DNA of 64,000 nt from a virus. Its lineage: Duplodnaviria > Caudoviricetes. Position numbers and translations under genes: made by a program. Below the pieces are notes generated by a model. It made no database searches, was not told the DNA's origin, and was given only the letters and a program-made list of their open reading frames with translations. Positions within the stretch are counted from its first letter, which is position 1. Every line of letters begins with the position of its first letter. Below are positions 5,297-61,536 of this stretch, one piece after another. The DNA lies in the IMG/VR virus record IMGVR_UViG_3300033066_001054. One strand, written 5' to 3'.

Positions 5297-5302
5297 TAAC
5301 AC

Positions 5303-5554
5303 ATGGACGACAAGATTCAAACATCACTCAGGCAGGGCGCAGGCATTGTCGCTCAACAGATGTCTCAAGCATTCAACGAAACCGAAGATTTCGAATTCAA
5401 GGTAAATCTCAACGGAGAACTTGCAAAGCGCGTGGCTGCGTTGTGCAAGATGATGGAAGTCGCATATGGCACACCAGTGGAAGAGGTGTGCGAGTACATC
5501 GTTTCGGTTGGGGTTCAGAACATTCGACAAGGCACAGAACAAACCCAAGAATGA
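5303..5554 (+). CDS. hypothetical protein
   Basis: 83-aa ORF with upstream AGGAG, tightly packed between genes, ATGA overlap downstream. Confidence 0.65.
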   Translation: MDDKIQTSLRQGAGIVAQQMSQAFNETEDFEFKVNLNGELAKRVAALCKMMEVAYGTPVEEVCEYIVSVGVQNIRQGTEQTQE

Positions 5555-6315: not shown

Positions 6316-6316
6316 C

Positions 6317-9300
6317 ATGTGTAATAGCAAACAGAATTTCGTACACCTGCACAACCACACTTGGTATTCAGTCCAAGACGCATTGCCGTCACCAACCGAC
6401 CTTGCTATGACTGCCAGAAAAGAGGGCTTTCCAGCAGTGGCTATCACAGACCACGGCCGAATGGGCGGGTGTATTGAGTTTTTTGAGGCATGCAACAAGC
6501 CGATTGACGGCCTTGACCCAATTAAGCCAATTCTTGGCTGTGAGATGTACGTTGTTCCAGACCGCTTTGACAAAGACATGGTCGTGTACGAATACGGCAA
6601 CAAGCGACGGAGAAAGACATGGCACTTGACCATGTTGGCTAAGAACCAAACTGGATACCGCAATCTGCTGGCACTAAGTCGCCTCGGAGCAGAACAGGAC
6701 GCATATCACTACTTCCCACGTATTGACTGGGATGTGATTACAAAGCACAGCGAAGGCGTCATATGTTTAAGTGGGTGCTTGGGTTCCGAGGTTAATCAAC
6801 AGTTGTCTAGAGAAGACGTTGACGGCGCAAGAGAAACCATGCGTCGATACAAAGAGGTCTTTGGTGAAGACTATTATGGTGAGTTGCAATACCATGGTAT
6901 TGATTTACAAAAGCACAACTTGCCATTGTTACTTGACTTATGCAAAGAACTAGACATTAAGACTGCGTGTTCTAATGACATCCACTATCTACAGAAAGAA
7001 CAGTGGGAGCTGCATGACGTTCTGATTCACATGCGCGAATCACTTACCAAGGATAGTGCAGAGGTAAAAGAGAGCGGCAAGCGCGAAGCATACGGCAGCC
7101 ACGAGTTCTACATGAAAACAGAAGCGCAAATGCGCAAGATGTTCGGTAAGGTCGAAGAGTGTGTCGACAACACTCTGGAAATCGCAGACAAGGTCGAGAA
7201 TTTCATGAAGGTCAATGTGCCACACATGTTGCCCAGTGCAGAGATTCCAACCAATGACCAGATGTTCAATGATTTCAAGTCAAAGCACTATCCATATCAC
7301 AAACCAAACGAAGCATACCTTGCCTATTTGGCTATTACTGGACTAAAAGCACTTGGTCTAGTAGACAATCCTGTTTACAAGGCCAGACTGAAGTATGAAT
7401 TAACTACAGTATGGAACATGGGTGTAACAGACTACTTCTTGATTCAGCGCGAGCTGGCTGAATTTATGAAGCAAGCGCATATTCGATTTGGTATTCGTGG
7501 TTCTGGAGTCGCCAGTTTAATCAATTACTGTCTTGGAATCAGTGACATTGACCCGGTGCGATGGAATCTGATGTTTGAGCGATTTTTGAACCCAGGTCGT
7601 GGCACCAAATACAAGCTGGAGTTCCCAGAGAAGCCAGCCAAAGAATGGTTTGACGAACATGGAAAACAGCCCCAGCAAGAAGCGTGTGAGCGGATTAAAA
7701 CCGTTGCAAAGCAAGCGATATCCGAAGACGCCGGCCTCAAGCCACTGCAACCGCAGATTCAAAAGGAAATCTGGGCACTAGAGGGTCAAAAACTTGCTTC
7801 ATATATCTGTGACTTGGCAGACTCGGGATTCAAAACCGACAAAAACGCCCCAAATCTCTGGAGTGCATACTTCTTGGGTATAACGCCAGAGAAGCCAAAG
7901 GGTGATATGGTTGTTGGTCAGGTCGCGACGCTACCAGACGTTGACACCGATATTGACGACCGATATCGAGACACTGCTATTGAGTGGGCAAGAAGAAGGT
8001 TCGGAGATGAGCATGTAGCAATCGTTGGCAACTGGGGCACATACGCAATCAAGGCCGCTGTTACTGCTTGTTTGAAGAGCTCCAAGAAGTTCCAACAACG
8101 ATATGGTGAAAAGTCTCATATTGTTGCGCAATCAATCTCAAAGTCTATTGCGGTTCAGCCGGCACACACAGAAGACCCTGAGGAACCGCTGGAGTTTGCA
8201 CTCAAACAAAATCCAGACTTGCAACAGTATGTTAAACAGTTCCCAGACGAGTTTGATGCCGCACGCAAGTTGATTGGCGTAGTGTCAAATCTTGGTGTTC
8301 ATGCCTCTGCCGTTGTTATTGCCAGCGAGCCAATCAATTGGCACACGCCTCTCGAGCGCTCAAACAAAGGCATGGTCACAGCATATGACATGAACGATGT
8401 TGAAAAGATAGGGATGGTCAAATATGACTTTCTCGGTCTGGCCATGCACCAAAAGATTGAACGTGCTCTGAAGTATATCAAGGAGCGCCATGGCAAAGAG
8501 ATTGACTTGCGTAACATTCCAATGGACGACAAGAAGGTCTTGAATCTATTCAATGAAAAAAAGACCACAACGCTGTTCCAGTTTGGAAGCGATGGTATGA
8601 AGGATTCTTTGAGCAAGGTGCAAGTTAGTGATGTCGAAGACCTGATTGCTGTTGTGTCTTTGTTCAGACCAGGCCCGCTTCAGTTCATTCCCGACTACGC
8701 ATCATACAAGCGAAACCCTAACACTGTACGTTATCCACATGAAATCATCAAGCGACACCTTGGTGTTACATATGGCATCCCGGTGTACCAGGAACAGGTC
8801 ATGCTTGTCTGTAGAGACATGGCTAACTTCGACCACGATGAGGTCGACAGCATGCGCAAAGCTGTGTCAAAGAAGAATCCTGTAGCTTTTGAGAAATGCT
8901 GTAAACTCTTCAAAGACAAAGCAACTAAGGCTGGCATTGACGGTAAAGTCGTTGACATGACGCTGGAAAGCTGGAAAGGATTTGCTGGATACGCTTTTAA
9001 CCGAGCGCATGCCGCATCATATGCTATTTTGGCTTACCGTGGTGCTTACTTGAGAGCGTACTACCCGGTTGAATGGCTTGCGGCGTGTATTCAGACAGAC
9101 ATTACAGGCAACAAACAAGACAGGGTTGGTGACCACATTCACGAGTGTGATTCAGAGCGGCCGCGAATTGTGGTGTCCGGACCAGATGTCAATACATCCA
9201 AACTTGAAGTGTCCATTACTGAAAAGGATATCATAGTGTTGCCACTTACGTATATTAAGGGCATTGGTGCCAATGGGTGTGAATTCATGGATGGCGCTCC

Positions 9301-9616
9301 GTATGCAGACATCAAGGATTTCATCATACGCGGCGAACCATCAAGGACGATGCTTCGAAACCTGGCTGAAGCCGGCGCACTTAGAAGTTTGCCTGATTAC
9401 AAGGGCGGCGACATTGACAGATTCATGGAGCGCGTTGAACCATACTATGCAGAACTCGACAGTATAAAACGAGAGGCAAAGAAGGCTGAGAAACAGCGAT
9501 ATACTTCAATGTCACCGTTGCAAAAGACAAGCACTGCGACTGCGCGACCTGTTCGTCCTGCCGGTAAGCCGTTTAGGCCAAAATCCAAGCCGTCAATCTT
9601 GGATAGTTTTGAGTGA
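6317..9616 (+). CDS. dnaE: DNA polymerase III alpha subunit (C family)
   Basis: PHP motifs HLHNHT, AITDHG, GCEMY, SNDIHY; RGSG, FERFLNP, catalytic PDVDTD, KYDFLGL, YAFNRAHAASY. Confidence 0.96.
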   Translation: MCNSKQNFVHLHNHTWYSVQDALPSPTDLAMTARKEGFPAVAITDHGRMGGCIEFFEACNKPIDGLDPIKPILGCEMYVVPDRFDKDMVVYEYGNKRRRKTWHLTMLAKNQTGYRNLLALSRLGAEQDAYHYFPRIDWDVITKHSEGVICLSGCLGSEVNQQLSREDVDGARETMRRYKEVFGEDYYGELQYHGIDLQKHNLPLLLDLCKELDIKTACSNDIHYLQKEQWELHDVLIHMRESLTKDSAEVKESGKREAYGSHEFYMKTEAQMRKMFGKVEECVDNTLEIADKVENFMKVNVPHMLPSAEIPTNDQMFNDFKSKHYPYHKPNEAYLAYLAITGLKALGLVDNPVYKARLKYELTTVWNMGVTDYFLIQRELAEFMKQAHIRFGIRGSGVASLINYCLGISDIDPVRWNLMFERFLNPGRGTKYKLEFPEKPAKEWFDEHGKQPQQEACERIKTVAKQAISEDAGLKPLQPQIQKEIWALEGQKLASYICDLADSGFKTDKNAPNLWSAYFLGITPEKPKGDMVVGQVATLPDVDTDIDDRYRDTAIEWARRRFGDEHVAIVGNWGTYAIKAAVTACLKSSKKFQQRYGEKSHIVAQSISKSIAVQPAHTEDPEEPLEFALKQNPDLQQYVKQFPDEFDAARKLIGVVSNLGVHASAVVIASEPINWHTPLERSNKGMVTAYDMNDVEKIGMVKYDFLGLAMHQKIERALKYIKERHGKEIDLRNIPMDDKKVLNLFNEKKTTTLFQFGSDGMKDSLSKVQVSDVEDLIAVVSLFRPGPLQFIPDYASYKRNPNTVRYPHEIIKRHLGVTYGIPVYQEQVMLVCRDMANFDHDEVDSMRKAVSKKNPVAFEKCCKLFKDKATKAGIDGKVVDMTLESWKGFAGYAFNRAHAASYAILAYRGAYLRAYYPVEWLAACIQTDITGNKQDRVGDHIHECDSERPRIVVSGPDVNTSKLEVSITEKDIIVLPLTYIKGIGANGCEFMDGAPYADIKDFIIRGEPSRTMLRNLAEAGALRSLPDYKGGDIDRFMERVEPYYAELDSIKREAKKAEKQRYTSMSPLQKTSTATARPVRPAGKPFRPKSKPSILDSFE

Positions 9617-9620
9617 TATT

Positions 9621-10298
9621 ATGAGCGAATCAGAAACCGAAGTCGTTATTGAAGTTGAAATCCCACAAGATTTCAAATCGTTGATTCATGTAGATTCAAC
9701 AGCTCTTATAGCCCACATCATGAGCCTGGATGGAGTTCACGACTTCAACGAAGAGTTTATGATGTGGCAAGAGTATTTGTCTCGTTTGGAACAATATGAC
9801 GACGATACAATTAGTGAAAAGCTACGGGACGTAGACCTTACCAATCTAATGCCGCCAGAACGAAGCAATAGCGCAGAAAACGCATATCAGGCATATTACC
9901 GCCTTGTTGAAACCCAGAGATACCTTTACAGTCTTCAAAAACCGGTGTCAAACAGGGTTGAAATGCTCAAAGACGCCATCAAATCATTAAGGTCTGCTGC
10001 GCGTGGAATGTTTAAGGGTACAGATAAAGACAAAGAAGCCCATTCCGACAGAATGGTGCGCAATTTCACAGCCGAACTTAGCAGAGCAAAGTGCCTGCTT
10101 GGTTCAATCAATGCATCTATTGAGACTGTTGAGTTTGCGGCCATGCAGGCTTCCAGAGTTATCAAGGAAAAAGAGTTTGAACTCAAGGTTAACGGCTCGT
10201 ATACTTCGCAGGGCCAGTCAAGCATCTACAACAGGCATTTACAAGCTGAAGAAGAAGATGATGACAGCCCAGTTCCATCAAAATATCGCAGACAATAG
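9621..10298 (+). CDS. helical/coiled-coil protein, possible recombination mediator
   Basis: Helical ORF directly upstream of ssb-recA; function inferred from position only. Confidence 0.45.
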   Translation: MSESETEVVIEVEIPQDFKSLIHVDSTALIAHIMSLDGVHDFNEEFMMWQEYLSRLEQYDDDTISEKLRDVDLTNLMPPERSNSAENAYQAYYRLVETQRYLYSLQKPVSNRVEMLKDAIKSLRSAARGMFKGTDKDKEAHSDRMVRNFTAELSRAKCLLGSINASIETVEFAAMQASRVIKEKEFELKVNGSYTSQGQSSIYNRHLQAEEEDDDSPVPSKYRRQ

Positions 10299-10479
10299 TG
10301 AATTTCCTGGCACGATGTGCGATAAGTAGATTGTAGGCGAAAAAAGTCTACAAAGTCGGCAAGTCGAAGGGATTTCTTCGGAAAATCTTGTATAAGACTA
10401 ACGGCACGAAATAGACAGACGAGGAAATGCGGATGAATTCCAAAAGCCATTTCCACACTGCACATAGCCAGGAGAAAAC

Positions 10480-11478
10480 ATGTCATACAGTAACACAAAC
10501 CAACGCATTGCCCAGGGTCAAATGGGCGGCAACAATCGCAACAGCCTGAAAGACGGCTACGTCGACCTTAAGGTCAGCAAGGATGCCACCGAAAAGGAAG
10601 TTTGCATCCGTCTCATTGGTCTCCCCTACGCATTTACTCAGCATCAAGCTAAGACATACAATGAGGAGCTCAAAAAGCGAGTGGATTTTCCATTCCCCGA
10701 CCACGAAGAGAAGCAGAAGTTCTCAAGAAACTGGCTCAGTCCTGACACCAAGGACGACCGTTATCCAGATGTCAACCCATGGGCTGAAGCCGGATATTCG
10801 GGTTCTCTTCGATATGCACAAAACGTGCTGGTGAGAAACCCTGACGGTTCGTTCAGTGTCAAGATTCTTGAGAAGGGCAAGATGCTCTTCGACCAATTCA
10901 CAGACATCGAGAAGATGAACATGCGTCGCAATGAGCAACGCAAGAACAACAACTTGGTGACATGTCTTGGTGGAGAAGTCACCCACGACATTTACGTGCT
11001 TGCTCAGTTCAACCCCAAGAAGCCGTTGATTCCAGACCTTAAGGTGTCTCTCGAGACTGAAACCTGTGAAATCACAGACGAAGAAATCGAGGCACTGAAG
11101 AAAATCGGATACCCAACCGAAGAGGAACTCGAAGAACTGTTTGCTCGCGAACCATTCCTCGAAGAATTGCCTCGCTGGTTCTGGTATGGATACCAGCTTC
11201 ATCGCATCTATAAGCCAGACCTGTTCCCAGGTTCTGAAGAGGTAACTGGTCGTGCAACCACATCTCGTGGTGAACTCGACATGAGCGATGCCACGAACGA
11301 TGATGATGAAGAGGAAGCGAAGCCAGCGGCACGTTCTACTCGTTCGTCTTCGACGGCAACTGCTGTGGCTACAAAGCCGGCTTCTAAGACCGCACCGGCC
11401 AAAGCAACAAAGGCTGAGGAAACAACAGAGGACGAGAGTGCCTTTGATTCCGAAGAACCCAGCGAAGAAGACTGGTAA
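10480..11478 (+). CDS. single-stranded DNA-binding protein (gp32-like)
   Basis: IRLIG..., YAQNVL...VKILEKGKMLF pattern; low-complexity linker and acidic tail ending EEDW; SD AGGAG; adjacent to recA. Confidence 0.65.
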   Translation: MSYSNTNQRIAQGQMGGNNRNSLKDGYVDLKVSKDATEKEVCIRLIGLPYAFTQHQAKTYNEELKKRVDFPFPDHEEKQKFSRNWLSPDTKDDRYPDVNPWAEAGYSGSLRYAQNVLVRNPDGSFSVKILEKGKMLFDQFTDIEKMNMRRNEQRKNNNLVTCLGGEVTHDIYVLAQFNPKKPLIPDLKVSLETETCEITDEEIEALKKIGYPTEEELEELFAREPFLEELPRWFWYGYQLHRIYKPDLFPGSEEVTGRATTSRGELDMSDATNDDDEEEAKPAARSTRSSSTATAVATKPASKTAPAKATKAEETTEDESAFDSEEPSEEDW

Positions 11479-11492
11479 TCTCGACACAAATC

Positions 11493-11523
11493 TAAGGGTG
11501 CCTGTTTCGACACGGCACCCTTA
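11493..11523 (+). terminator. stem-loop after ssb
   Basis: TAAGGGTGCC/GGCACCCTTA stem with inner TGT-TTCG-ACA; weak U tail. Confidence 0.55.
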
Positions 11524-11546
11524 CTTGCCCAAAATGCACCAAAATT

Positions 11547-12785
11547 ATGTCAAAAAATAACACAAAAACAGAAAGCCAAGACTTGGCAAAACGCATAGAG
11601 GAGCGGAGAAAGGTCGTTGAGGCTCGTCAGAAGAAATACGGAATCCCAAAGAGCACACTGTTAGTTGGCGGAGAGCACGAGAAATACGATTTCGTACCGC
11701 TTGGTATTTCAGAAATCGACTCTAAGCTCAAGACCAAATCTATTACCGGAGAAGAACACTTTGGACTCTTGCGCGGTACTATTGTAGAGTTTTGCGGACC
11801 ATCTATGTCTGGTAAAACCTATGCCGCATATCATTTAGCCAAAGAACATCAGAAACTCGGTCTTAGGGTGCTCTTTGTCGATATTGAGCGCGGTTACTAT
11901 GAGCCACGGGCAGTACAGCTCGGGGTAAATATTGAAGACCCAGACCTTTGGGAAGTCCAGAAAGTCACGTTTGCCGCAGGTACAGTTGGCGACTATGTCG
12001 TTGAGTGTGTCAACAGCGGTGACTACGGACTCATTATTGTTGACTCAATTGCCACTCTTATCCCAGATGCTGACTTTGACAAGTCGCTAGAAGACAACGC
12101 CAAAGTGGGTGCTCACGCCATGTTCATGGGTCAGTTTTTGAGAAAGCTGGTCTCGAGCAAAATGGAAGAGAACTTGACCACTGTGGTACTCATCAATCAG
12201 TTCAGAACAGGTTCTGGCGCAATGCCTAACAGTTTCACAGACAAATCGTCTGGTGGTAAAGCTGTGGAGTACTGGTCTCGTATCAGACTATGGTTTGCTC
12301 GAATTGGCGGAAAAGACGGATGGGTAATGGATGGCAAAGGCAACCGCGTTGGCGGTCGTTCTCGATGCACCATCTACAAAACCAAAACAGGTGGCCAAGA
12401 CGAAATCGCAGAATTCCCTGTGTATTTTGTTCCTGCTGACAATGACTTGGTAGGAGAGTTCCTGCACAGAACAATCAACAACAAGGACTTCGAGGGCATT
12501 GTAACACACACTGCGCCTCGTGGAAGCCGTGAGAAGCTATTCCGATATGTTGATGAGACTACTGGCGAGCTTATTGCCACTCCAGACAAGTATGAGTTCT
12601 GTATTGCAATGATGCACGCTGGTCCGCCTGAAAAGCGACCGCGCACTGATAAATCAGACACCATGTTTGAGTACATGTGCGCCAGGTTGAAACTCAAGGA
12701 AGACCAGATTGAGGCACTTGTAGAGCGCATCAAAAACCCACCTGCTGATGATAATGACTCAGGTCTTGAAAGTGAACCAGACTAA
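11547..12785 (+). CDS. recA: RecA/UvsX recombinase
   Basis: Walker A GPSMSGKT, FVDIE, IIVDSIA, LINQFR, SGGKAVEY. Confidence 0.92.
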   Translation: MSKNNTKTESQDLAKRIEERRKVVEARQKKYGIPKSTLLVGGEHEKYDFVPLGISEIDSKLKTKSITGEEHFGLLRGTIVEFCGPSMSGKTYAAYHLAKEHQKLGLRVLFVDIERGYYEPRAVQLGVNIEDPDLWEVQKVTFAAGTVGDYVVECVNSGDYGLIIVDSIATLIPDADFDKSLEDNAKVGAHAMFMGQFLRKLVSSKMEENLTTVVLINQFRTGSGAMPNSFTDKSSGGKAVEYWSRIRLWFARIGGKDGWVMDGKGNRVGGRSRCTIYKTKTGGQDEIAEFPVYFVPADNDLVGEFLHRTINNKDFEGIVTHTAPRGSREKLFRYVDETTGELIATPDKYEFCIAMMHAGPPEKRPRTDKSDTMFEYMCARLKLKEDQIEALVERIKNPPADDNDSGLESEPD

Positions 12786-53951: not shown

Positions 53952-54043
53952 TTTGCCGCGAACCTATCGCGGCAAATTATTCCCTCTCGAGGGGACTTTT
54001 TTAAGAATCTCGCTCACTTTCGTAGGTGAGCGAGATTCTTTTT
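53952..54043 (+). terminator. three tandem stem-loops (terminator or structured leader)
   Basis: TTTGCCGCGA/TCGCGGCAAA; TCCC..GGGA plus T6; AAGAATCTCGCTCAC/GTGAGCGAGATTCTT plus TTT. Confidence 0.7.
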
Positions 54044-54121
54044 CATAAGAAGCCAGATAGACGAAGTGTTGGCAAGCGCCGATACCCCACCCAAATCATA
54101 AATTAGGGAGCAAATCTGACT

Positions 54122-56038
54122 ATGGCTACAACAAAACAAGAAGGAGGACTGGACGCACGCACCAAAGCGGTTCGCTTGGCAATGCTACAGGAATCCGACG
54201 CGGACGATTTTCGACAATGCGTTCGCGAAGTGCAAGCCAGTACAGGACTTTCCGAAGCGGAAGCTCGGATTGTTGCTGGAGCACTTAGAAGTGAAATGCT
54301 TCCCAAGGTCGCTCAATCTCTCGGACTAGAGGAGGATGACATTGCAGACTTTGCAAACAAACTCCCAGGTGACGAAGATGATGCAGACGGGGAGCAACCG
54401 ACCACAGATTTCGCTGACGACAAGGTTGAAGACGAAGATGACTTCGTTGAAGAACCACAAGATGATACAGCCGCCATTCGAGGGGATGCTCTCGATATGG
54501 GTGGTGAAGACGCCATCGAAGACGACATGAGCGATGTAGACGACTTGGGTACAGAACAGACCCTTGAGATTCAAGTGCCTGCGGGCAAAGTAGACGAGGT
54601 TCAAGAAGCGATTCGTTCGATTCTTGGAACCGATGCTTTTGGCCTTGGCGGAGATTCTGAATTCAATTTCAAAGACGACGAAGAAGGAGATTTTGGAGAT
54701 GAAAATTTCGAAGATATGCCTTTGGAAGACGATGACGAAGATTTGAATTTCGAAGATGAAAACATTGGGGAAGACGCCCCGAACACAGGAAAACAGGTGA
54801 TTAGCATGTCCAACAAGCAAAAGGCTGGCCGTGAAGTCAGGGCTGCTGATGAGCAGGTGAAACCAAAAGACCGAGGTCTTGGAAGTGACACTAGCCACGG
54901 AGGCAAACCTTTCCAATATGCGGCAGATGCCCAATATCAGGGTGAAGACAAACGACCTGGCATGACCCTTGAGGACAGTGCAGGCAATTCACTCCGCGAC
55001 CAAAACCCGACTTTCGCAGACGCGACAGTCCCCGCCAAAAACCCCGAGAAACTTCAGTTGAAGAACTCGTACAAGACCTTCAAATACGAAGGTGCCGATG
55101 GTGACATCGAGTACGACATGAGCAGCGAAGTTTTCGAAGTCCCCTCTGCCGGTGAAAAGGCCGGAGGCGAATTTGAAGTTCCAACTCAAATGACCAGTAC
55201 TCTTGACCGCAAGACTACTGTGGCCACTTTGAATAGTAACGTCGAAAGAGTCGCTGGGGAAAAAGCAACCGACGACAGTGATTATGTCACTGCAAACAAC
55301 GAAGAGCTTTATGTTACTTCTGACAATCGCACCGTAGGTCGCGATGAGTTCGAAGAGCATGTCATTGACACCTTGGTGGCAAGCGGCATGACAGAGAAGG
55401 AAGTACTTGCGATGTCATTCGCAGAAGGGCTCGAGCTATACGGCAATATTGTCGAACAGCGCACTGCTGCAAGCAATGCAATGGGCGACATTACCCGCGC
55501 ACATGCTGAAAGGCAGGCTCGCATCAATAAACTGGCAGCCGACATTAAGGTCGAGATTGCTGGTGGAACTGAAGAGCCAGATGGCACAGACGAGACAATT
55601 GAGGAAGCCCTTAAGGAATCTCGAGAAGCCATGAGAGACACATTCATCCGCGAGGCTGAATTGTTCAAAAAGCGCGTTAAGGCCGCTTATGGCGTAACTA
55701 CTCGACTCGTAATCGCTGGAATTATCAACGATAACGAAGTTGACAATCACGTAGACACTTGGCTCAAGGATAACCTGAGCGTGGGTGCCATGCTTAAGCA
55801 AGGCAACTTCATGCTTCGGGCTGCGTCCAAGACGACCGACCGCACCGTACAAGCCGGCAACAACAGTGGCAACACTCGAACTGCTGGAGTATCGGTAAAC
55901 CCTGCCCTTGTAACACCGAATCTCGGTAGCACACAGGAGGTTAAGGACCGTCTCGCCAATCTTTTCACTGTTGGTGGAATCCCACGTAACGCATTTGATG
56001 CTTACAAAGATAACGACAACAACAGCAGGGACTTTTAA
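54122..56038 (+). CDS. putative capsid scaffold protein
   Basis: Very acidic with a helical C-terminus; positioned between the protease and decoration/MCP genes. Confidence 0.6.
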   Translation: MATTKQEGGLDARTKAVRLAMLQESDADDFRQCVREVQASTGLSEAEARIVAGALRSEMLPKVAQSLGLEEDDIADFANKLPGDEDDADGEQPTTDFADDKVEDEDDFVEEPQDDTAAIRGDALDMGGEDAIEDDMSDVDDLGTEQTLEIQVPAGKVDEVQEAIRSILGTDAFGLGGDSEFNFKDDEEGDFGDENFEDMPLEDDDEDLNFEDENIGEDAPNTGKQVISMSNKQKAGREVRAADEQVKPKDRGLGSDTSHGGKPFQYAADAQYQGEDKRPGMTLEDSAGNSLRDQNPTFADATVPAKNPEKLQLKNSYKTFKYEGADGDIEYDMSSEVFEVPSAGEKAGGEFEVPTQMTSTLDRKTTVATLNSNVERVAGEKATDDSDYVTANNEELYVTSDNRTVGRDEFEEHVIDTLVASGMTEKEVLAMSFAEGLELYGNIVEQRTAASNAMGDITRAHAERQARINKLAADIKVEIAGGTEEPDGTDETIEEALKESREAMRDTFIREAELFKKRVKAAYGVTTRLVIAGIINDNEVDNHVDTWLKDNLSVGAMLKQGNFMLRAASKTTDRTVQAGNNSGNTRTAGVSVNPALVTPNLGSTQEVKDRLANLFTVGGIPRNAFDAYKDNDNNSRDF

Positions 56039-56059
56039 GGAAACACAGGAGAAATAGCA

Positions 56060-56806
56060 ATGGCAATTCGCGAGCTTCAAAGCGTAGTCCACCTTCAATA
56101 CGAAAGCAAGGCCGATTCAAACGTCCAGAACCTCTGGCACGCAGGTCAGGTTCTCGCTATGGAATGGCAGGCAAGCGCTAACAATACAACACAAGGTTTG
56201 GTCCGCCTCGCAAACCGTGGTGACAGTTGGACGACAACTTCGTCTGGTGTCCTCGACAACCCCGGTACAGAGGTACGAGCAAACATCGTAGGTCTTTCTG
56301 CCGACGACACGGCGCGAACTGGCAACACCGGCATTTATGTCGACCCAGTCGGTTCCACCTATGTTGGCACAGGTGTAGGTTCTTCCGCATCGTTTACCGA
56401 CAACACAAATGGTTTCTATTCAGCGACCAAGCGTGCTCTCGGTGACTATCAGGATGAGCGCATCACCAACGTCACAAACTTGACTGATTCGAACTCCGGT
56501 TACGCCGGTCCTCGACGCTCAGTCGCCGTTTATGCAACACCATCTGCGCAGTTCCTCGTGGACAGCACAGCATTCGTGTCAGCACAGACAGCCACAACTA
56601 ACGGTACGTATCTGGACCAATCTCTTGGTACAGCGTTCGCCCCTGGCGACATTCTTACTGTTGGTGCAGGTGTGTTTGCGAGCGCAAACAACTTCGGTTG
56701 CTTGGTTCGACGCACAGCGGCTGCCGATGGTACTGCTATCGCCCGATTGGACGAGTACAACAGCACCAGCGGCCTTATGAAAATTACACTCTTGATGAGT
56801 CTGTAA
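56060..56806 (+). CDS. putative head decoration/cement protein
   Basis: Directly upstream of MCP, SD AGGAGA, beta-rich G/T/S composition, AGQVL..VGLSADD..FAPGDILTV pattern. Confidence 0.6.
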   Translation: MAIRELQSVVHLQYESKADSNVQNLWHAGQVLAMEWQASANNTTQGLVRLANRGDSWTTTSSGVLDNPGTEVRANIVGLSADDTARTGNTGIYVDPVGSTYVGTGVGSSASFTDNTNGFYSATKRALGDYQDERITNVTNLTDSNSGYAGPRRSVAVYATPSAQFLVDSTAFVSAQTATTNGTYLDQSLGTAFAPGDILTVGAGVFASANNFGCLVRRTAAADGTAIARLDEYNSTSGLMKITLLMSL

Positions 56807-56830
56807 GCAGGGGTATAGGAGATAACTAAC

Positions 56831-57691
56831 ATGAGCAACATCCGAAACGTATATGGCATTGACGAGCAAAACGAAGAGTTTCTCGCCGCCGCTATGGACA
56901 CCCCCGAAGGTCGCGTCGCATTAGCGCAAGCTATGGTTGAACCCATTAAGACATCTTTGATGTACCAAGGTGTAGGCCGCAAGCTGCTGATGGTTGACGA
57001 ACTGCCGCAGGGTGCCCTTCCTCGCTACGAGCGAGACATCGCAGTTAAGTCTTACGTAATGAGTAAGCGTGGTTCAGTTCCAACGTCTATCGTTGAAGCT
57101 GAAGAGTTGATGGTTCCGGTTCTTGAAATCGCTTGTAACCCAACCGTCAAGCTCAACGAAATCCGTGCCCGACGATTCTATATTGTCGACCGCGCACAGG
57201 TGAGGGCCAAGGACTCATTGCAGCGACAAGAGGACGCCGAAGTCTTCCGCGTTATCAACGCGGCTGTACCTTCAGCACACAACATCACGGTTACTGGTTC
57301 ACTCCAGCCCGAGAACATCAACCTCGCTCTGTCTCTCATTGAAGAGCACGAGTTGATTGGTGCCAAAATTGTTGTGCATCCTCAGCGCTACAAAGACATC
57401 CGAACATGGGGCAAGGAGTTCTATGATGAAGCGACAACTCGCGACATCTTGATGACCGGACTTTTCGGTCACTTGTACTCCGCTGACATTCACGTCAGCA
57501 CCATCGTTCCAAAGAACGCTGTCTACGTATTGGCACCGGCCGCCTTCGTTGGCGCCATGCCAGTCCGCCAGGACATCACCGTTCTTCCGAGCGACGACCC
57601 TCGACGACTCCGCCTCGGCTGGGTCATCTTCGAGGAACTTGGCTTCGCCGTTATCAACGACTACGCCACCGCTCGAATCATCGTTAGCTAA
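56831..57691 (+). CDS. major capsid protein (HK97 fold)
   Basis: Canonical position, SD AGGAGA, C-ending codon bias, downstream terminator; GRKLLMVDELPQGALP.YE.D, EIACNPTV, GWVIFEELGFAV motifs. Confidence 0.88.
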   Translation: MSNIRNVYGIDEQNEEFLAAAMDTPEGRVALAQAMVEPIKTSLMYQGVGRKLLMVDELPQGALPRYERDIAVKSYVMSKRGSVPTSIVEAEELMVPVLEIACNPTVKLNEIRARRFYIVDRAQVRAKDSLQRQEDAEVFRVINAAVPSAHNITVTGSLQPENINLALSLIEEHELIGAKIVVHPQRYKDIRTWGKEFYDEATTRDILMTGLFGHLYSADIHVSTIVPKNAVYVLAPAAFVGAMPVRQDITVLPSDDPRRLRLGWVIFEELGFAVINDYATARIIVS

Positions 57692-57709
57692 CGCTACGGT
57701 GAACGACTT

Positions 57710-57739
57710 ACAGGCCCCGCCATAGGCGGGGCCTGTTTT
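57710..57739 (+). terminator. intrinsic terminator of the capsid operon
   Basis: ACAGGCCCCGCC-ATA-GGCGGGGCCTGT followed by TTTGTTTG. Confidence 0.88.
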
Positions 57740-57756
57740 GTTTGTATAAGGCTGAA

Positions 57757-57981
57757 GTGGTCGAAAAACAACATAATACAGAGTTGAATAATGGATTCTA
57801 TGACGCAGCGACACAGCGCGATATATTGAAGACAGGTTACTACGGTCATTTGTATTCAGCAAGTATACATGTTAGCACAATGGTTCCTAGAAACACTGTG
57901 GAAACTATGGATAGGGTGTTGCAATCAGAAGAACAGCGTAAGCAACTTTCTGATTACATGCGGTCGTGGTTGAAGAAATGA
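57757..57981 (+). CDS. MCP-fragment mini-protein 1 (MCP aa 197-231 plus shared tail)
   Basis: FYDAATQRDILKTGYYGHLYSASIHVSTMVPRNTV vs MCP FYDEATTRDILMTGLFGHLYSADIHVSTIVPKNAV (26/35 identical); tail LSDYMRSW; start GTG 57757 (alternative TTG 57742). Confidence 0.85.
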   Translation: MVEKQHNTELNNGFYDAATQRDILKTGYYGHLYSASIHVSTMVPRNTVETMDRVLQSEEQRKQLSDYMRSWLKK

Positions 57982-58223
57982 GCAACGGCGAAATTATACT
58001 ACCAGGTGCCTTCGATGGCGCATTGCCGATGAGAGAAGACATAACGATTTTGCCAGCCACACCTGTGCCACGAGATAAACAGGGACTTGGCTGGGTGGTT
58101 TTTGAAGAAGTTGGTGAAGCAATAATCAACAACTATGCTATTGATAGAATAGTGGTCAGTAATCAAACTCAAGAAGATATCAAACGAGCGCTGGAAGAAT
58201 ACATGAGGAAATATGCAAGGTAG
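57978..58223 (+). CDS. MCP-fragment mini-protein 2 (MCP aa ~234-286 plus shared tail)
   Basis: PGAFDGALPMREDITILP..LGWVVFEEVGEAIINNYAIDRIVVS vs MCP PAAFVGAMPVRQDITVLP..LGWVIFEELGFAVINDYATARIIVS; tail LEEYMRKY; ATGA overlap. Confidence 0.85.
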   Translation: MSNGEIILPGAFDGALPMREDITILPATPVPRDKQGLGWVVFEEVGEAIINNYAIDRIVVSNQTQEDIKRALEEYMRKYAR

Positions 58224-58434
58224 CAGTGAATCAAAACCATATAAGGCGTTTGGGCGCAAGCTGTTAATGGTTGACGAATTACCTCAGGGTGCATTAGCAA
58301 AATACGAGCGTGACGTACAAGTGAAATCGTATGTCATACCACGTCGTGGTGGTGTGCCCGGAGCTGTTTCAGAACCTTATGCACCAATTGACACACTCAA
58401 GGAATATATTAGGAAGTGGATGAGTAGTGGCTAA
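58213..58434 (+). CDS. MCP-fragment mini-protein 3 (MCP aa ~45-84 plus shared tail)
   Basis: GRKLLMVDELPQGALAKYERDVQVKSYVIPRRGGVP vs MCP aa 49-84 (28/36 identical); tail LKEYIRKW; SD GAGGA. Confidence 0.88.
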   Translation: MQGSSESKPYKAFGRKLLMVDELPQGALAKYERDVQVKSYVIPRRGGVPGAVSEPYAPIDTLKEYIRKWMSSG

Positions 58435-58660
58435 AAACACAAATCAACAAAGAGAGGACCAAATAACAGCGGCGCTTAGCACCCCAGAAGGCAAGGCAGC
58501 ACTTCGTGCCGCGATGTCCGCGCCAATACAGACTTCGATAATGTATCAGAACATCGGCGCGAAACTGCTAATGGTAGATTCATTGCCAGACCCTTATGAC
58601 GAATATCCGAATGCCCGTGACGCTGTTAGCGATTACATGAAAAAATGGGTGCAAAAATGA
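58427..58660 (+). CDS. MCP-fragment mini-protein 4 (MCP aa ~11-59 plus shared tail)
   Basis: AALSTPEGKAALRAAMSAPIQTSIMYQNIGAKLLMVDSLP vs MCP AAMDTPEGRVALAQAMVEPIKTSLMYQGVGRKLLMVDELP; tail VSDYMKKW. Confidence 0.85.
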   Translation: MAKNTNQQREDQITAALSTPEGKAALRAAMSAPIQTSIMYQNIGAKLLMVDSLPDPYDEYPNARDAVSDYMKKWVQK

Positions 58661-58851
58661 CCGCGAACCCACTGGCTAACATCAATGCAGCTCTCGAGGC
58701 ATTGGAACAACACGAATTGGCCGGCGCAAAAATCATCATTCATCCGAGCAGGTATGCCGATATTGAGCGATGGAGAAGAGAAGATGACGCCACAATACGC
58801 GAGCAGTTTAGCAAGTACATGCGAGGATATTTGGGTCAAGACATCAAGTAA
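58657..58851 (+). CDS. MCP-fragment mini-protein 5 (MCP aa ~160-193 plus shared tail)
   Basis: NINAALEALEQHELAGAKIIIHPSRYADIERW vs MCP NINLALSLIEEHELIGAKIVVHPQRYKDIRTW; tail FSKYMRGY; ATGA overlap. Confidence 0.85.
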   Translation: MTANPLANINAALEALEQHELAGAKIIIHPSRYADIERWRREDDATIREQFSKYMRGYLGQDIK

Positions 58852-59393
58852 TATTCAGAGACATCTTGACCCATGGCTGCTTCACATTTGTCAACAATTT
58901 TGACAATGTAGTCTGATATTCCTTTATGTTGCAATGAACTGAGTTTCGACATTTCACTGAGTGTGTATGTCATTTCTTTGAATGATTCCATACGTCGCTC
59001 ATCTTGTGCCAACATTTGTTGACCAATCAAAACACCGAACATCTGCGGGTCTTGGACCCCAAAATCCTTGCTGTGGTATTTGATTGTGTGAATAGACCTG
59101 ATTGCGTGTTCTGCATGCTCGAATTCTGTTAAACAACGAATTAAAGAGGTGTACAGTGCTGCCAATTCTCCAGTCATCTGCACTTCGCCAGACACCAACA
59201 CTGGCAATAGACTGTATTGGATTGTTCGAATACAGGCACTCATTTCAGCGTTGGGCTCGAATGCCATGTTCGATGGCATTTCGTCCGGGGACTCATTGAG
59301 TTGTTGCTGAATGGTCGACGTGTTATTGTCGATTCTCTCTTGCTCAATTCCCTGGATGTCGTCTGGAATACTTGCCTTTCTAAATCGTTTCAT
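58836..59393 (-). CDS. hypothetical helical protein
   Basis: 185-aa ORF coupled to the upstream minus-strand gene by ATGA overlap. Confidence 0.6.
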   Translation of the reverse strand: MKRFRKASIPDDIQGIEQERIDNNTSTIQQQLNESPDEMPSNMAFEPNAEMSACIRTIQYSLLPVLVSGEVQMTGELAALYTSLIRCLTEFEHAEHAIRSIHTIKYHSKDFGVQDPQMFGVLIGQQMLAQDERRMESFKEMTYTLSEMSKLSSLQHKGISDYIVKIVDKCEAAMGQDVSEYYLMS

Positions 59394-59746
59394 TGTAGCG
59401 TCAATAGATACTTGAGTTTGTTCATTGCAGCAAGCATCTCATCCCTGAGATTAAGTAAGTCCGAATCTGATTGTTCAAACACATTGTTAAACTCTATCAG
59501 ATATTCAATGCAGTGACCGATGAACTCAATAGGTTCAACATTTACAGAAAGCGATATGCTCAATTTATCTTCGCGGATTCTGCTTTGGGATTTGCCCAAG
59601 TACACTTCGACAAATTCATCAACAAGTCCATCAAGTGCTTCGTAGGTTTTTCCAAACGCCTCGTGTTGCGCGAAACTTTTGGTCTGCCAGTGGAACACAC
59701 GAATTTGTTGTTGAATCGTGATGAGGTTTCCAATTAGCTGACTCAT
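59390..59746 (-). CDS. ferritin/Dps-like four-helix protein (DUF5856-like)
   Basis: FHWQTKSFAQHEAFGKTYEALDGLVDEFVEVYLG...LLNLRDEM...KLKYLLTL. Confidence 0.75.
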   Translation of the reverse strand: MSQLIGNLITIQQQIRVFHWQTKSFAQHEAFGKTYEALDGLVDEFVEVYLGKSQSRIREDKLSISLSVNVEPIEFIGHCIEYLIEFNNVFEQSDSDLLNLRDEMLAAMNKLKYLLTLQ

Positions 59747-59781
59747 AGTGTATTATTCGCCATGAATCAAACACCGCCCTT

Positions 59782-60699
59782 TCAGACCATCGCAAGTTCT
59801 TTTGAATTCGGCAACGGCGTGTTCAAGGCTGATACGATTTCATCAGCGAAATTCTCTTTCGGTCTACACCAAGATGTGTGCTCGTAGTTGACCTTATTTG
59901 CGCTTGATTCGTATTTCTTTGGATTGTGCCTGAGCAAAAGTTTCTGTGCTAATAGTGTATCTGCTATTGGGATATTGGTTCCCATGTGTCCGCAAAATGC
60001 TTGTTCAACCTTATTCTTATCACCGAGGCGCAAAACGTTGCCATGAAGTGTATACAAAAGCCGGTATTTGATGCCGCATTTTGATACAACATCAAACCAT
60101 CCTTGCTTCTTCAGTGAACGCTTTTGCACTGGCGACAAGTGTTCCCAAAGCAAATGAATTGCTCGGTGAGTAGCCTTGGCCCGGAGCATTGCATTTCGCT
60201 CAATCTCTGCTTCACGTGCCCGACGTTGCTCTTCGAGTAATTCTCTCTCTTCCTCAGTGAGTTCTCGAGATGTAATCCCACCCAGCATTGCGCCGAAATA
60301 GTTCGATGTATCACTTGATGCAATGTACTGAAGCACCTGGCCCGAAGCAGTACACCCCTCAGCGGTACTGAGTATCAGATTTTGCAGTTCGGTATTTGAA
60401 CTGCCTGGCGTCATTGCCAGCCTCACTGACCAATATGGATAAGACCCTTCAGTGGCGGTGGCGGTTATGTTTTGAACTACATAATTGCAATTTGAACCAG
60501 TGATAACTCTTGTGTTAGCCAAAAGTTCAATTGCCGCAGTGTCGTCTACTTCAAATTCATATACAGCACTTAGGGTTGTATCGGTTCGATACGCGGTAAT
60601 TGCCGTGTTGCTCATAGTCGAAAGATGCACGCTATGGCTGGTTCCAGAAGTAGCGCAACCTGACCAATACAACCCAAGAGAGTTGTTTGTCGAGGGCAT
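59782..60699 (-). CDS. hypothetical protein with a coiled coil and a conserved-looking C-terminal domain
   Basis: C-terminal RAIHLLWEHLSPVQ..GWFDVV..KYRL..FCGH..PIADTLLAQKLLL..AN; TAATG coupling with the upstream gene. Confidence 0.65.
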   Translation of the reverse strand: MPSTNNSLGLYWSGCATSGTSHSVHLSTMSNTAITAYRTDTTLSAVYEFEVDDTAAIELLANTRVITGSNCNYVVQNITATATEGSYPYWSVRLAMTPGSSNTELQNLILSTAEGCTASGQVLQYIASSDTSNYFGAMLGGITSRELTEEERELLEEQRRAREAEIERNAMLRAKATHRAIHLLWEHLSPVQKRSLKKQGWFDVVSKCGIKYRLLYTLHGNVLRLGDKNKVEQAFCGHMGTNIPIADTLLAQKLLLRHNPKKYESSANKVNYEHTSWCRPKENFADEIVSALNTPLPNSKELAMV

Positions 60700-60968
60700 T
60701 ATCCTTCTGGCGGACTTGGATACCCGGCCTTTACTGGCGGAGCAAAGATGATTTTCCCAGCATGGGGGTCAAACTCTGACATCTCGCCTTCTTCTATGCC
60801 AAACGGGTCTACGTAATATGCCATGAATCCTTCGGTTAGCTTTTTCTCGAAGAGCTGTTTGGCTCGGTCTACGTCATATTCATCATTAACGTTGAACTCA
60901 AAAGGCGTGTCTCCAGTCTCGTTCAATTCATGCATGATTAGCCTGCCGGCTGCTTGTGTAGCTTGCAT
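60699..60968 (-). CDS. small hypothetical protein
   Basis: LNETGDT..AKQLFE..GFMAY..EFDPHAGKIIFAPPVKAG; ATG 6 nt after TGCTATAAT. Confidence 0.65.
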   Translation of the reverse strand: MQATQAAGRLIMHELNETGDTPFEFNVNDEYDVDRAKQLFEKKLTEGFMAYYVDPFGIEEGEMSEFDPHAGKIIFAPPVKAGYPSPPEG

Positions 60969-60975
60969 ACTCATA

Positions 60976-61536
60976 TTATAGCACAAGTTTGCGCCAATCT
61001 GATGTTAGCATTGCACCAAGCAAGCCGGCTGTGTTCCATGCGTCCCAATCCGCACTGTGCTCCTGACCTTCCCACGTGAGTCCAAATGCCTCAACAGCAC
61101 GGCGCAATCCAACGTTTTTGTAGCTATTGAATGCCAATTTTGTTAATGTGGCAACATCAATACACTCGTCAGACAAGAACATGTCGCAATTGGCGAATTC
61201 ACACTCTTTTTTCACGCAATCCCAGTCGTCACCATAGACAGCAGTAGCGTACTGCTTCATCCCCATGTTGGTCATTCGTGCGCTAGTAATAGCCAGAGAT
61301 TGGCCTCGACGCACATCCGCAGGCGTAATTCCTGTTAGGTCTGTACAGTATGTGCTGATTGTCGAGTTTTCTGGCTTGACATACAGCATGTCACGACCAG
61401 AGCGTTCGCCTGTTTTTGGGTTCAGAAAACACCAACCAATTTGAATGATTTCAGGAAACATTCCGTCTGGAGGTGTTCCGTCCCAGCAGGTGAGCTCGAG
61501 GTCGAAGACCAATATCTTATCAGCGCGACGAATCAT
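60976..61536 (-). CDS. DEDDh 3'-5' exonuclease (ERI-1/KapD-like)
   Basis: ExoI VFDLELTCW, EIIQIG, CTDLTGIT, ExoII YGDDW, ExoIII HSADWDA; likely start ATG 61536. Confidence 0.88.
   Translation of the reverse strand: MIRRADKILVFDLELTCWDGTPPDGMFPEIIQIGWCFLNPKTGERSGRDMLYVKPENSTISTYCTDLTGITPADVRRGQSLAITSARMTNMGMKQYATAVYGDDWDCVKKECEFANCDMFLSDECIDVATLTKLAFNSYKNVGLRRAVEAFGLTWEGQEHSADWDAWNTAGLLGAMLTSDWRKLVL

What the first reader, a model, noticed from the sequence alone, without database searches (positions are those of the whole stretch)
57757..58851. Operon of five mini-genes, each carrying a different shuffled fragment of the phage's own major capsid protein
Seen: immediately after the MCP terminator, five overlapping ORFs of about 64-81 aa each contain one MCP-homologous segment. 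The order is aa 197-231, ~234-286, ~45-84, ~11-59, ~160-193, and identity is high (26/35 and 28/36 for fragments 1 and 3). Each has its own start, stop and unrelated flanks, and two junctions are ATGA overlaps. A decayed duplicate would stay collinear and would not gain matching new tails. Established: several anti-phage systems are triggered by capsid proteins or peptides (CapRel-SJ46, Lit by the T4 gp23 Gol peptide, PifA by T7 gp10), and satellites use capsid paralogs to interfere with assembly (PICI Ccm). Inference: this is a modular capsid-epitope library. It could act as decoys or inhibitors of host capsid sensors, as dominant-negative poisons of competing related phages, or as assembly modulators. 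I know of no described system with this architecture.
Basis: partly seen in the sequence, partly recalled or inferred. Interest (0 to 1): 0.96.

Follow-up and report, generated by a model that had tools for sequence, protein, structure and literature searches.

The report
Capsid-piece mini-protein array in megaphage
Right behind its major capsid gene, a giant uncultured phage carries five small genes under selection, each pairing a different piece of that capsid protein with one shared tail helix; I found no published description of such genes, and their job is still unknown.

Summary
Window 57757-58851 holds five overlapping ORFs (m1-m5). Each matches one segment of the adjacent HK97-fold major capsid protein (MCP residues 197-231, 233-286, 45-89, 11-59, 162-199; E 1e-16 to 1e-19). 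Each ends in the same amphipathic, cationic tail, h-x-x-Y-[MI]-x-x-[WYH]-h.

The array is not an artefact or decay. The same five genes, in the same order and with intact frames, occur in at least six independent assemblies. dN/dS is 0.11-0.34, and 0.08 in the tail. The fragments keep 81% of MCP-invariant residues against 54% of variable ones.

The array is accessory. One complete close relative has deleted it, sister clades lack it, and another relative has an IS605 transposase at the site. It is also a local divergence hot spot: the MCP stays 99-100% identical while the mini-proteins differ by 4-46% (most by 10-37%).

It belongs to a wider undescribed phenomenon. Hundreds of protein clusters join the N-arm/E-loop piece of this MCP family to foreign heads, often twin-arginine leaders. 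This scan had already noted Tat-tagged capsid pieces on other DNA.

Function is untested. My best guess is that these are MCP-mimicking microproteins that bind capsid protein, or something that binds it, in a conflict role.

The parts
56831..57691 (+). Major capsid protein (286 aa, HK97 fold), the source family of the fragments
   Evidence: 48.6% identical to phage G gp27. Matches PDB 6wkk at E 1.5e-89. AF2 model pLDDT 82.5; best fold matches are HK97 gp5 and encapsulins.
57710..57746 (+). Intrinsic terminator after the MCP (12-bp stem, 10 GC pairs, T run); conserved in relatives
   Evidence: inverted repeat I1.
57757..57981 (+). m1: MCP 197-231 piece (A-domain helices 200-215 plus strand 219-222), linker and tail QLSDYMRSWLKK. 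GTG start 6 nt after AAGG; alternative TTG at 57742.
57978..58223 (+). m2: MCP 233-286 piece (P-domain beta-hairpin 241-270 plus C-terminal strand), linker and tail ALEEYMRKYAR. ATGA overlap with m1.
58213..58434 (+). m3: MCP 45-89 piece (strand 54-58 plus outgoing E-loop), linker and tail LKEYIRKWMSSG
58427..58660 (+). m4: MCP 11-59 piece (N-arm helices plus strand 54-58), linker and tail VSDYMKKWVQK
58645..58851 (+). m5: MCP 162-199 piece (A-domain helix 160-171, strand 179-182, helix 184-191) and tail FSKYMRGYLGQDIK. Second ATG at 58657 makes an ATGA overlap with m4. The 3' end overlaps the convergent 185-aa gene by 16 nt.
57946..57978 (+). Tail helix of m1 (shared C-terminal motif)
58188..58220 (+). 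Tail helix of m2
58393..58431 (+). Tail helix of m3
58625..58657 (+). Tail helix of m4
58807..58848 (+). Tail helix of m5 (the most divergent copy)

Best explanation
The five ORFs are functional accessory genes that encode MCP-derived microproteins.

Anatomy (shown): each is about 65-80 aa. Each consists of one native structural element of the HK97-fold capsid protein, a short linker, and a common C-terminal amphipathic, net-positive helix. The elements are N-arm, E-loop, two A-domain pieces and the P-domain hairpin with C-terminus.

Origin and status (shown): the genes arose from an old duplicate of this phage lineage's own MCP. They are kept by purifying selection, are dispensable for the virion, and evolve far faster than the MCP and the flanking genes.

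Mechanism (inferred): the fragments keep the residues that are invariant in the MCP family, and m2 at least does not model as a confident fold on its own. They therefore most likely act by mimicry. Each would occupy the contact that its parent segment normally makes on capsid protein subunits or capsomers. The shared tail would dock all five to one common site, either the membrane surface or a common partner.

Likely effect (inferred): sequestering or capping capsid protein, that is, dominant-negative interference with head assembly. The probable target is related co-infecting phages. Fine control of the phage's own assembly is a secondary possibility.
For: Real and selected:
- The same five genes, in the same order and at the same site, are intact in L046, L047, L048, L052 and L054, and in part in L049-51 and L053. 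These come from independent datasets.
- Concatenated dN/dS is 0.11-0.34, Fisher p 6e-9 to 1e-31.
- dN/dS by region: tail 0.08, MCP piece 0.18, linker 0.31, head 0.45.

Mimicry is plausible:
- The fragments retain 57/70 MCP-invariant positions against 81/151 variable ones, p 5e-5.
- The ESM Atlas model of m2 alone has pLDDT 0.43.
- The pieces map to discrete HK97 elements in a pLDDT 82.5 model.

Tail:
- Its hydrophobic moment is 0.57-0.81, and four of five tails lie above the 90th percentile of C-termini in the window. The best 11-residue helix windows carry +1 or +2 there; counting the whole tails by hand from the sequences gives +2 for each.
- R/K codons differ between copies (CGG, AGG, AAA, CGA), so conservation is at the protein level.
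- m5 keeps the tail although no gene follows it on that strand.

Accessory or conflict signature:
- The complete DTR genome G001/L003 has deleted m1 to mid-m5 and keeps only a relic of the m5 tail.
- Complete genomes of sister clades have no fragments.
- L067 carries IS605 OrfB plus a pyrophosphatase at the site.
- The array has dN 0.08-0.095 and dS 0.45-0.61. The flanks have dN 0.007-0.02 and dS 0.04-0.28, and the MCP has dN 0.002-0.005.
- GC3 is about 0.43 for the array against 0.60 for the MCP.

Wider pattern:
- 607 protein clusters carry the MCP 11-89 piece. Most of the best 150 are small proteins with foreign heads, many of them twin-arginine leaders.

Precedent:
- Phage-encoded blocking of a rival's virion assembly is known: Tab, PMC10884400.
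Against: - No binding, localisation or expression data exist.
- A dominant-negative set should also poison the phage's own head unless timing, dose or resistance protects it. None of these is shown.
- The genes sit about 20 nt behind a strong terminator with no recognisable promoter, so expression may be low.
- A-domain pieces (m1, m5) are core elements rather than obvious interface elements.
- Rapid evolution against an invariant resident MCP fits any outside target, including host sensors.
- The role of the tail (membrane or protein partner) is only inferred from its composition.
Confidence: 0.4

Rival explanations
1. Anti-defence decoys or inhibitors. Each mini-protein would present an MCP epitope to a host immune sensor that recognises capsid protein, and would block or titrate it without triggering it. 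The tail would supply a shared anchoring or inactivating function.
For: - MCP-sensing defences are established: Avs7 and Dsr1 bind newly made MCP monomers (PMC13581612), and a capsid trigger for type I Thoeris is cited. CapRel and Lit/Gol are from my own knowledge.
- The locus behaves like an arms-race accessory island: dispensable, a divergence hot spot, and changing while the MCP stays invariant.
- The fragments keep the most conserved MCP residues, which are the features sensors would target.
Against: - A fragment that carries the trigger epitope could activate rather than block a sensor.
- Placement behind the MCP terminator suggests no more protein than MCP, which is poor for competition.
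- Many related capsid-piece proteins carry export-type twin-arginine leaders. That fits badly with decoys for cytoplasmic sensors.
- No defence or anti-defence homology was found.
Confidence: 0.25
2. Helpers or minor components of the phage's own head. The tail would be a capsid-targeting peptide like the C-termini of scaffolding proteins or encapsulin cargo. The fragments would fill or cap special lattice positions (portal vertex, seams of the very large shell), or chaperone MCP before assembly.
For: - The position is immediately after the decoration and MCP genes, on the same strand, possibly expressed by terminator read-through at sub-stoichiometric level.
- Short shared C-terminal helices are how scaffolds and cargo proteins dock to HK97-fold shells (my own knowledge).
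- The fragments keep MCP contact residues.
Against: - The array is deleted in a complete close relative, and absent from sister clades and phage G, which have similar MCPs.
- It evolves about 20-40 times faster at non-synonymous sites than its supposed partner.
- Its codon usage is unlike that of the structural genes.
- The tail motif was not found elsewhere in related genomes.
Confidence: 0.15
3. The pieces reassemble non-covalently. The shared tails would bundle the five chains so that the fragments rebuild a partial, split MCP-like module with a function of its own.
For: - Together the pieces tile MCP 11-89 and 162-286 with overlaps.
- All five are co-inherited in fixed order with translational coupling.
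- Single-chain permuted MCP relatives exist elsewhere, such as P0062.
Against: - The spine helix and E-loop return strand (residues 90-161), the core of the fold, are missing from the whole window.
- Some lineages have damaged m1 or m2 while the other genes stay intact.
- No modelling of the set was possible.
Confidence: 0.07
4. The fragments have no protein function. They would be decaying remnants of a duplicated MCP, silent donor cassettes for gene conversion of the MCP, or an assembly artefact.
For: - Partial gene copies next to an expressed gene resemble vls or pilS cassette arrays (my own knowledge).
- The DNA similarity to the MCP is 70-85% over short stretches.
Against: - All frames are intact across lineages with up to 46% amino-acid divergence.
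- dN/dS is far below 1.
- The non-MCP tail is the most conserved part.
- The MCP shows no variation that conversion would create: it is 99-100% identical.
- The array was recovered in independent assemblies.
- There are no long exact repeats.
Confidence: 0.03

Closest known systems
HK97-fold major capsid protein of Bacillus phage G (gp27, PDB 6wkk; PHROG 2522)
   Same: Each mini-protein carries a segment clearly homologous to this family and keeps its invariant residues.
   Different: Each covers only 35-56 residues of a 286-residue fold, so none can form the fold. All add a non-MCP tail. Phage G itself has no such genes after gp27.
Capsid paralogues used to alter assembly: PICI Ccm, T4 gp24 vertex protein (my own knowledge)
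   Same: An extra capsid-derived gene beside the main MCP that acts on head assembly.
   Different: Those are full-length folds that join the lattice. Ccm is encoded by a satellite, not by the phage. Here there are five sub-domain pieces encoded by the phage itself.
Tab, tail assembly blocker of Pseudomonas prophage JBD26 (Patel et al. 2024, PMC10884400)
   Same: A small phage-encoded accessory protein that stops rival phages by blocking virion assembly. The producer needs a way to spare itself.
   Different: Tab targets tail assembly (the tape measure), is not derived from the structural protein it blocks, and is expressed from a prophage. No anti-factor is identified here, and the effect here is unproven.
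Tat-leader plus capsid-piece mini-proteins
   Same: Small phage accessory proteins built from a short piece of the phage's MCP family plus a constant address-like tag. The N-arm/E-loop module, about residues 11-80, is the same one carried by m3 and m4.
   Different: In those proteins the tag is an N-terminal twin-arginine leader, usually one or two genes, placed away from the MCP. Here the tag is a C-terminal amphipathic helix, five different pieces include A-domain and C-terminal ones, and the array lies directly behind the MCP.
Eukaryotic microProteins (for example LITTLE ZIPPER, Id proteins; my own knowledge)
   Same: Short proteins derived from a larger protein. They keep only an interaction element and act as dominant-negative regulators of the parent's complexes.
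   Different: Different kingdom and targets (transcription factors). The analogy is one of concept only.
Silent cassette arrays for gene conversion (Borrelia vls, Neisseria pilS; my own knowledge)
   Same: A row of partial copies next to the expressed gene.
   Different: The cassettes here have their own starts, stops, coupling and a conserved added tail under purifying selection. The expressed MCP does not vary.

Membership tests
HK97-fold major capsid protein (phage G gp27-like, PHROG 2522) | Significant sequence homology to the family | tested here: met
   BLASTP E 1e-16 to 1e-19 for all five. PHROG 2522 hits for m2, m4 and m5.
HK97-fold major capsid protein (phage G gp27-like, PHROG 2522) | Complete fold in one chain: N-arm, E-loop, P-domain with spine helix, and A-domain | tested here: not met
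   Each ORF covers one element of 35-56 residues. Residues 90-161, which include the spine helix, are absent from the window.
Pseudogene or decaying duplicate | Disrupted frames, or loss in most relatives without constraint | tested here: not met
   All five frames are open wherever the contig covers them, in L046, L047, L048 and L052 and, over the parts present, L049-L051 and L053. The one exception is L054, where m1 is frame-shifted at its N-terminal end and restarts from an internal ATG.
Pseudogene or decaying duplicate | dN/dS near 1 | tested here: not met
   Concatenated dN/dS 0.11-0.34, p 6e-9 to 1e-31. Tail 0.08.
Silent donor cassettes for gene conversion (vls/pilS type) | Cassettes lack their own translation signals, and the expressed gene is variable | tested here: not met
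   Own starts, SD-like purine runs and ATGA coupling. The MCP is 99-100% identical across array-bearing genomes.
Tat-leader capsid-piece family | N-terminal twin-arginine leader (RR-x-F-L plus hydrophobic stretch) | tested here: not met
   None of m1-m5 has it (sequences). About 23-35 of the related clusters do.
Tat-leader capsid-piece family | Short MCP-derived piece as the passenger | tested here: met
   m3 and m4 carry the same MCP 11-89 module as that family.
C-terminal membrane-targeting amphipathic helix (MinD/FtsA type) | C-terminal, strongly amphipathic, net positive | tested here: met
   Hydrophobic moment 0.57-0.81; four of five above the 90th percentile of window C-termini; the best 11-mers carry +1 or +2. 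Counting each whole tail by hand gives +2.
C-terminal membrane-targeting amphipathic helix (MinD/FtsA type) | Binds the membrane | not testable with these tools
   Needs localisation of tail fusions.
Scaffold or cargo-type C-terminal capsid-docking peptide | Docks to the inner face of the HK97-fold shell protein | not testable with these tools
   Needs binding assays or reliable multimer models. The tail does not resemble the encapsulin GSL-type consensus as I recall it.
microProtein (dominant-negative derivative of a larger protein) | Small protein derived from, and retaining one interaction element of, a larger protein | tested here: met
microProtein (dominant-negative derivative of a larger protein) | Acts by binding the parent protein or its partners | not testable with these tools
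   Needs co-expression and pull-down experiments.

The most novel reading that the evidence does not exclude
Large phages of several capsid lineages routinely recycle short pieces of their own capsid protein into tagged microproteins. The tags include Tat-type leaders, 'MIIDI' heads and, here, a C-terminal amphipathic helix. The microproteins would serve as weapons against capsid assembly of rival phages, or against host capsid sensors. This window would hold the most elaborate example known: a co-inherited five-piece set that tiles three quarters of the MCP.
Probability: 0.35. Interest if true: 0.95.

Novelty: categorically new. Interest (0 to 1): 0.85.

Why it matters
If these mini-proteins act on capsid protein or on capsid sensors, they define a new class of viral conflict genes built by cutting up the virus's own structural protein. 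They would be a natural, evolution-tested set of peptides that mark the functionally critical surfaces of an HK97-fold capsid.

That would give direct handles on three questions:
- how very large capsids (phage G builds a T=52 shell) are assembled and controlled;
- how phages compete inside one cell;
- how phages might blunt immune systems that sense capsid protein.

The related families (607 clusters for one MCP piece alone) suggest the strategy is common yet unannotated. Many 'hypothetical' small phage genes could therefore be explained at once.

Tried and rejected
- Complex prediction of the MCP with m3 (alignments A1 and A2): no verdict, score 0.00. I do not use it either way.
- The first AF2 model of the MCP, from a 14-sequence alignment, was unusable at pLDDT 40. 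A 27-sequence alignment fixed this.
- Megablast against cultured phages found nothing. tblastn of m4 against cultured phages found only phage G's MCP.
- Pfam gave nothing for the mini-proteins or for the MCP itself.
- ESM Atlas look-alikes of m2 were uninformative.
- I tested whether the tail derives from MCP helix 200-215, which BLAST suggests for m5. A tail HMM built from m1-m4 scores m5 only 3.3 bits and does not hit the MCP, so this is unsupported.
- A search for the tail as a generic tag in related complete genomes, using a degenerate DNA pattern, found none.
It is not significant, and the other two sites are not at gene starts.
- I considered whether tail conservation merely reflects the next gene's ribosome-binding site. 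I rejected this because m5 has no downstream gene on its strand and the R/K codons vary.
- Literature searches for capsid-fragment genes, decoys or dominant-negative capsid pieces found no description.
Full report
**The object.**
The window comes from an uncultured megaphage related to Bacillus phage G.
- ORF 56831-57691 encodes a 286-aa major capsid protein (MCP). It is 48.6% identical to phage G gp27 and matches the solved gp27 chain 6wkk at E 1.5e-89.
- With a 27-sequence alignment, AlphaFold2 gives a confident model (pLDDT 82.5). Its best structural matches are HK97 gp5, the Pyrococcus virus-like particle and encapsulins.
- A 12-bp GC-rich hairpin with a T run follows the MCP (57710-57736).
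- About 20 nt later, five overlapping ORFs run to 58851, where they meet a convergent gene.

**Check of the observation.**
- BLASTP of each ORF against the MCP gives one strong local match each: m1 to 197-231, m2 to 233-286, m3 to 45-89, m4 to 11-59, and m5 to 162-199 (extendable to 215). E-values are 1e-16 to 1e-19 and identities 50-74%.
- The PHROG 'major head protein' profile independently hits m2, m4 and m5 at the expected profile positions.
- Two junctions are ATGA overlaps. The other two overlap by 11 and 8 nt.
- On the model, the pieces are discrete HK97 elements:
  - m4: N-arm helices plus the first strand.
  - m3: that strand plus the outgoing E-loop.
  - m5: A-domain helix, strand and helix.
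  - m1: the next A-domain helices and strand.
  - m2: the long P-domain hairpin with the C-terminal strand.
- Residues 90-161 (E-loop return strand and spine helix) are represented nowhere in the window.
- All five proteins end in the same motif, h-x-x-Y-[MI]-x-x-[WYH]-h. A six-frame scan of the 64 kb window for this motif near a stop finds exactly these five. An HMM of the m1-m4 tails finds nothing else.

**The array is real and under selection.**
- A word-indexed search of 5.8 billion proteins found full-length homologues of m3.
- Their contigs show the same m1-m5 array, in the same order, between the MCP and the same convergent 185-aa gene. They come from independent JGI and SRA assemblies: L046, L047, L048, L052, L054, and in part L049-51 and L053.
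- All frames stay open apart from a frameshift at the start of m1 in L054, at 54-96% amino-acid identity to the window.
- Nei-Gojobori dN/dS for the concatenated genes is 0.11-0.34. Non-synonymous change is depleted at p 6e-9 to 1e-31.
- By region, the tail is the most constrained (0.08), then the MCP piece (0.18), the linkers (0.31) and the N-terminal heads (0.45).
- The fragments retain 57 of 70 positions that are invariant across MCP clades, but only 81 of 151 variable positions (p 5e-5). The constraints that shape the MCP therefore still act on the pieces.
- No long exact repeats are present.
- Misassembly, pseudogenes and silent cassettes are thus excluded as far as sequence data can exclude them.

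**Origin.**
- A maximum-likelihood tree of the concatenated pieces with MCPs places all arrays in one clade (support 100). That clade lies inside the group formed by the window's MCP lineage and its 70-78% relatives (support 100). It is weakly sister to the resident MCP (support 42).
- At sites where the resident MCP is derived, the pieces carry the ancestral residue 11 times, the derived one 4 times and neither 7 times.
- The array is therefore an old offshoot of this lineage's own MCP and has evolved separately since. GC3 is about 0.43 for the array against 0.60 for the MCP.

**The array is accessory and fast-moving.**
- The complete, terminally redundant genome G001 (locus L003) is about 92% identical in DNA upstream. 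It lacks window 57752-58747 and keeps only a relic of the m5 C-terminal half. That is a deletion, so the array is dispensable.
- Complete genomes of sister clades, and phage G, have no MCP pieces outside the MCP.
- A relative with a 96% identical MCP carries an IS605 OrfB transposase and a pyrophosphatase at the site.
- Between the window and L046, L052 or L054, flanking genes differ by dN 0.007-0.02 and dS 0.04-0.28. The MCP differs by dN 0.002-0.005. The array differs by dN 0.08-0.095 and dS 0.45-0.61.
- The locus is thus a divergence hot spot in otherwise near-identical genomes. This is the pattern of conflict-related accessory genes, not of a core assembly factor.

**A wider phenomenon.**
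- An exhaustive phmmer search with MCP residues 11-89 found 607 clusters at E up to 1e-3.
- Of the best 150, only 5 are ordinary full-length MCPs.
- 129 are 260 aa or shorter, and 81 of those have at least 24 foreign residues in front of the piece. About 23-35 of them carry a twin-arginine leader with a hydrophobic stretch. Another group shares an 'MIIDI' head. In most, the homology starts at MCP 10-19 and ends at 60-89.
- Examples sit among small accessory genes of large phage contigs.
- L039 has MCP pieces in two of its proteins by search and apparently in two more by eye. L061 has two pieces with a common head.
- One 428-aa protein strings permuted MCP pieces into a single chain.
- Earlier notes of this scan describe Tat-tagged capsid pieces in other phage groups on other DNA.
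- I found no paper on any of this.

**Mechanism.**
What is shown:
- The five genes encode small, selected, dispensable proteins built from native MCP elements plus a common tail.
- If helical, the tail is strongly amphipathic and net positive.
- m2 does not model as a confident fold on its own.

What I infer:
- The pieces act by mimicry, occupying the contacts their parent segments make. The tail docks all five to one site, either the membrane (by analogy with C-terminal membrane-targeting helices and with the leader-tagged relatives) or a common partner.
- The most economical target is capsid protein itself. That would give dominant-negative interference with head assembly, for which Tab is a precedent in kind (PMC10884400).
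- The resident MCP is invariant while the mini-proteins change. This argues that the selective partner lies outside the phage's own head, in rival phages or in host sensors.

What remains open:
- The host-sensor decoy reading cannot be excluded, because MCP sensors are real (Avs7 and Dsr1, PMC13581612). However, decoys must avoid triggering, the genes lie behind a terminator, and export-type tags in relatives fit it poorly.
- A structural or assembly-helper role is weakened by dispensability and by the rate of change.
- One attempt to model MCP-m3 binding gave no verdict, and read data were not available.

**Verdict.**
The architecture has no described counterpart that I could find, and it belongs to a large unannotated class of capsid-derived mini-proteins.

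Noticed in passing
L067 (contig JAFDWS010000002.1, 1.36 Mb, Armatimonadota MAG), locus 3968-7642; also L068 (Fimbriimonas MAG): A bacterial MAG contig of 1.36 Mb carries an MCP 96% identical to the window's. Between that MCP and the homologue of the 185-aa gene lie an IS605 OrfB/TnpB transposase and an inorganic pyrophosphatase instead of the array. This hints at Armatimonadota as host, or at an integrated or mis-binned megaphage.
   Followed up: partly
G001 (IMGVR_UViG_3300044957_000763) 304593-305012; locus L060: The complete close relative has a second, distant MCP-like stretch inside a 356-aa ORF far from the head genes. It is 26% identical over MCP 108-245, E 2e-13.
   Followed up: no
Proteins P0062 (428 aa) and P0074 (352 aa): These single polypeptides contain MCP pieces in permuted order (for example 9-80, a second N-arm, 246-283, an A-domain piece, 91-137) behind a shared N-terminal head. 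They are a one-chain counterpart of the shuffled array.
   Followed up: partly
L061 2585-2827 and 6001-6366; proteins P0034, P0069, P0084, P0104, P0107: A second recurring tag, an N-terminal 'MI(I/V)DI..' head, is joined to different MCP pieces: the C-terminal hairpin in one gene and the N-arm/E-loop in another, in the same contig.
   Followed up: partly
window 54122-56038 (638-aa acidic protein upstream of the decoration-like and MCP genes): This very acidic, probably scaffold- or core-like protein has no family match. Its C-terminal 'LFTVGGIP' stretch loosely recalls encapsulin cargo-loading peptides. The resemblance is from memory only.
   Followed up: no
window 54000-61000: There is a sharp composition step at the MCP terminator. 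Head genes have GC 50-55% (MCP GC3 0.60). The array and the convergent non-structural genes have GC 41-48% (GC3 0.37-0.54).
   Followed up: yes
Proteins P0089 (2754 aa) and P0147 (1565 aa; MBG and dockerin domains): These giant, probably bacterial surface proteins show 7-9 weak repeated matches (about 30% identity) to the MCP N-arm/E-loop query. Whether this is homology or compositional bias was not resolved.
   Followed up: no
L039 (IMGVR_UViG_3300025018_002598, 83 kb) 8979-12356: A much smaller relative (MCP 63% identical) carries MCP pieces 3-6 kb downstream of its MCP. Two ORFs (64 aa, and the C-terminus of a 210-aa protein) are confirmed by search and hold stretches identical to its own MCP. 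Two more (108 and 151 aa) look N-arm-like by eye only. None has the tail motif.
   Followed up: partly
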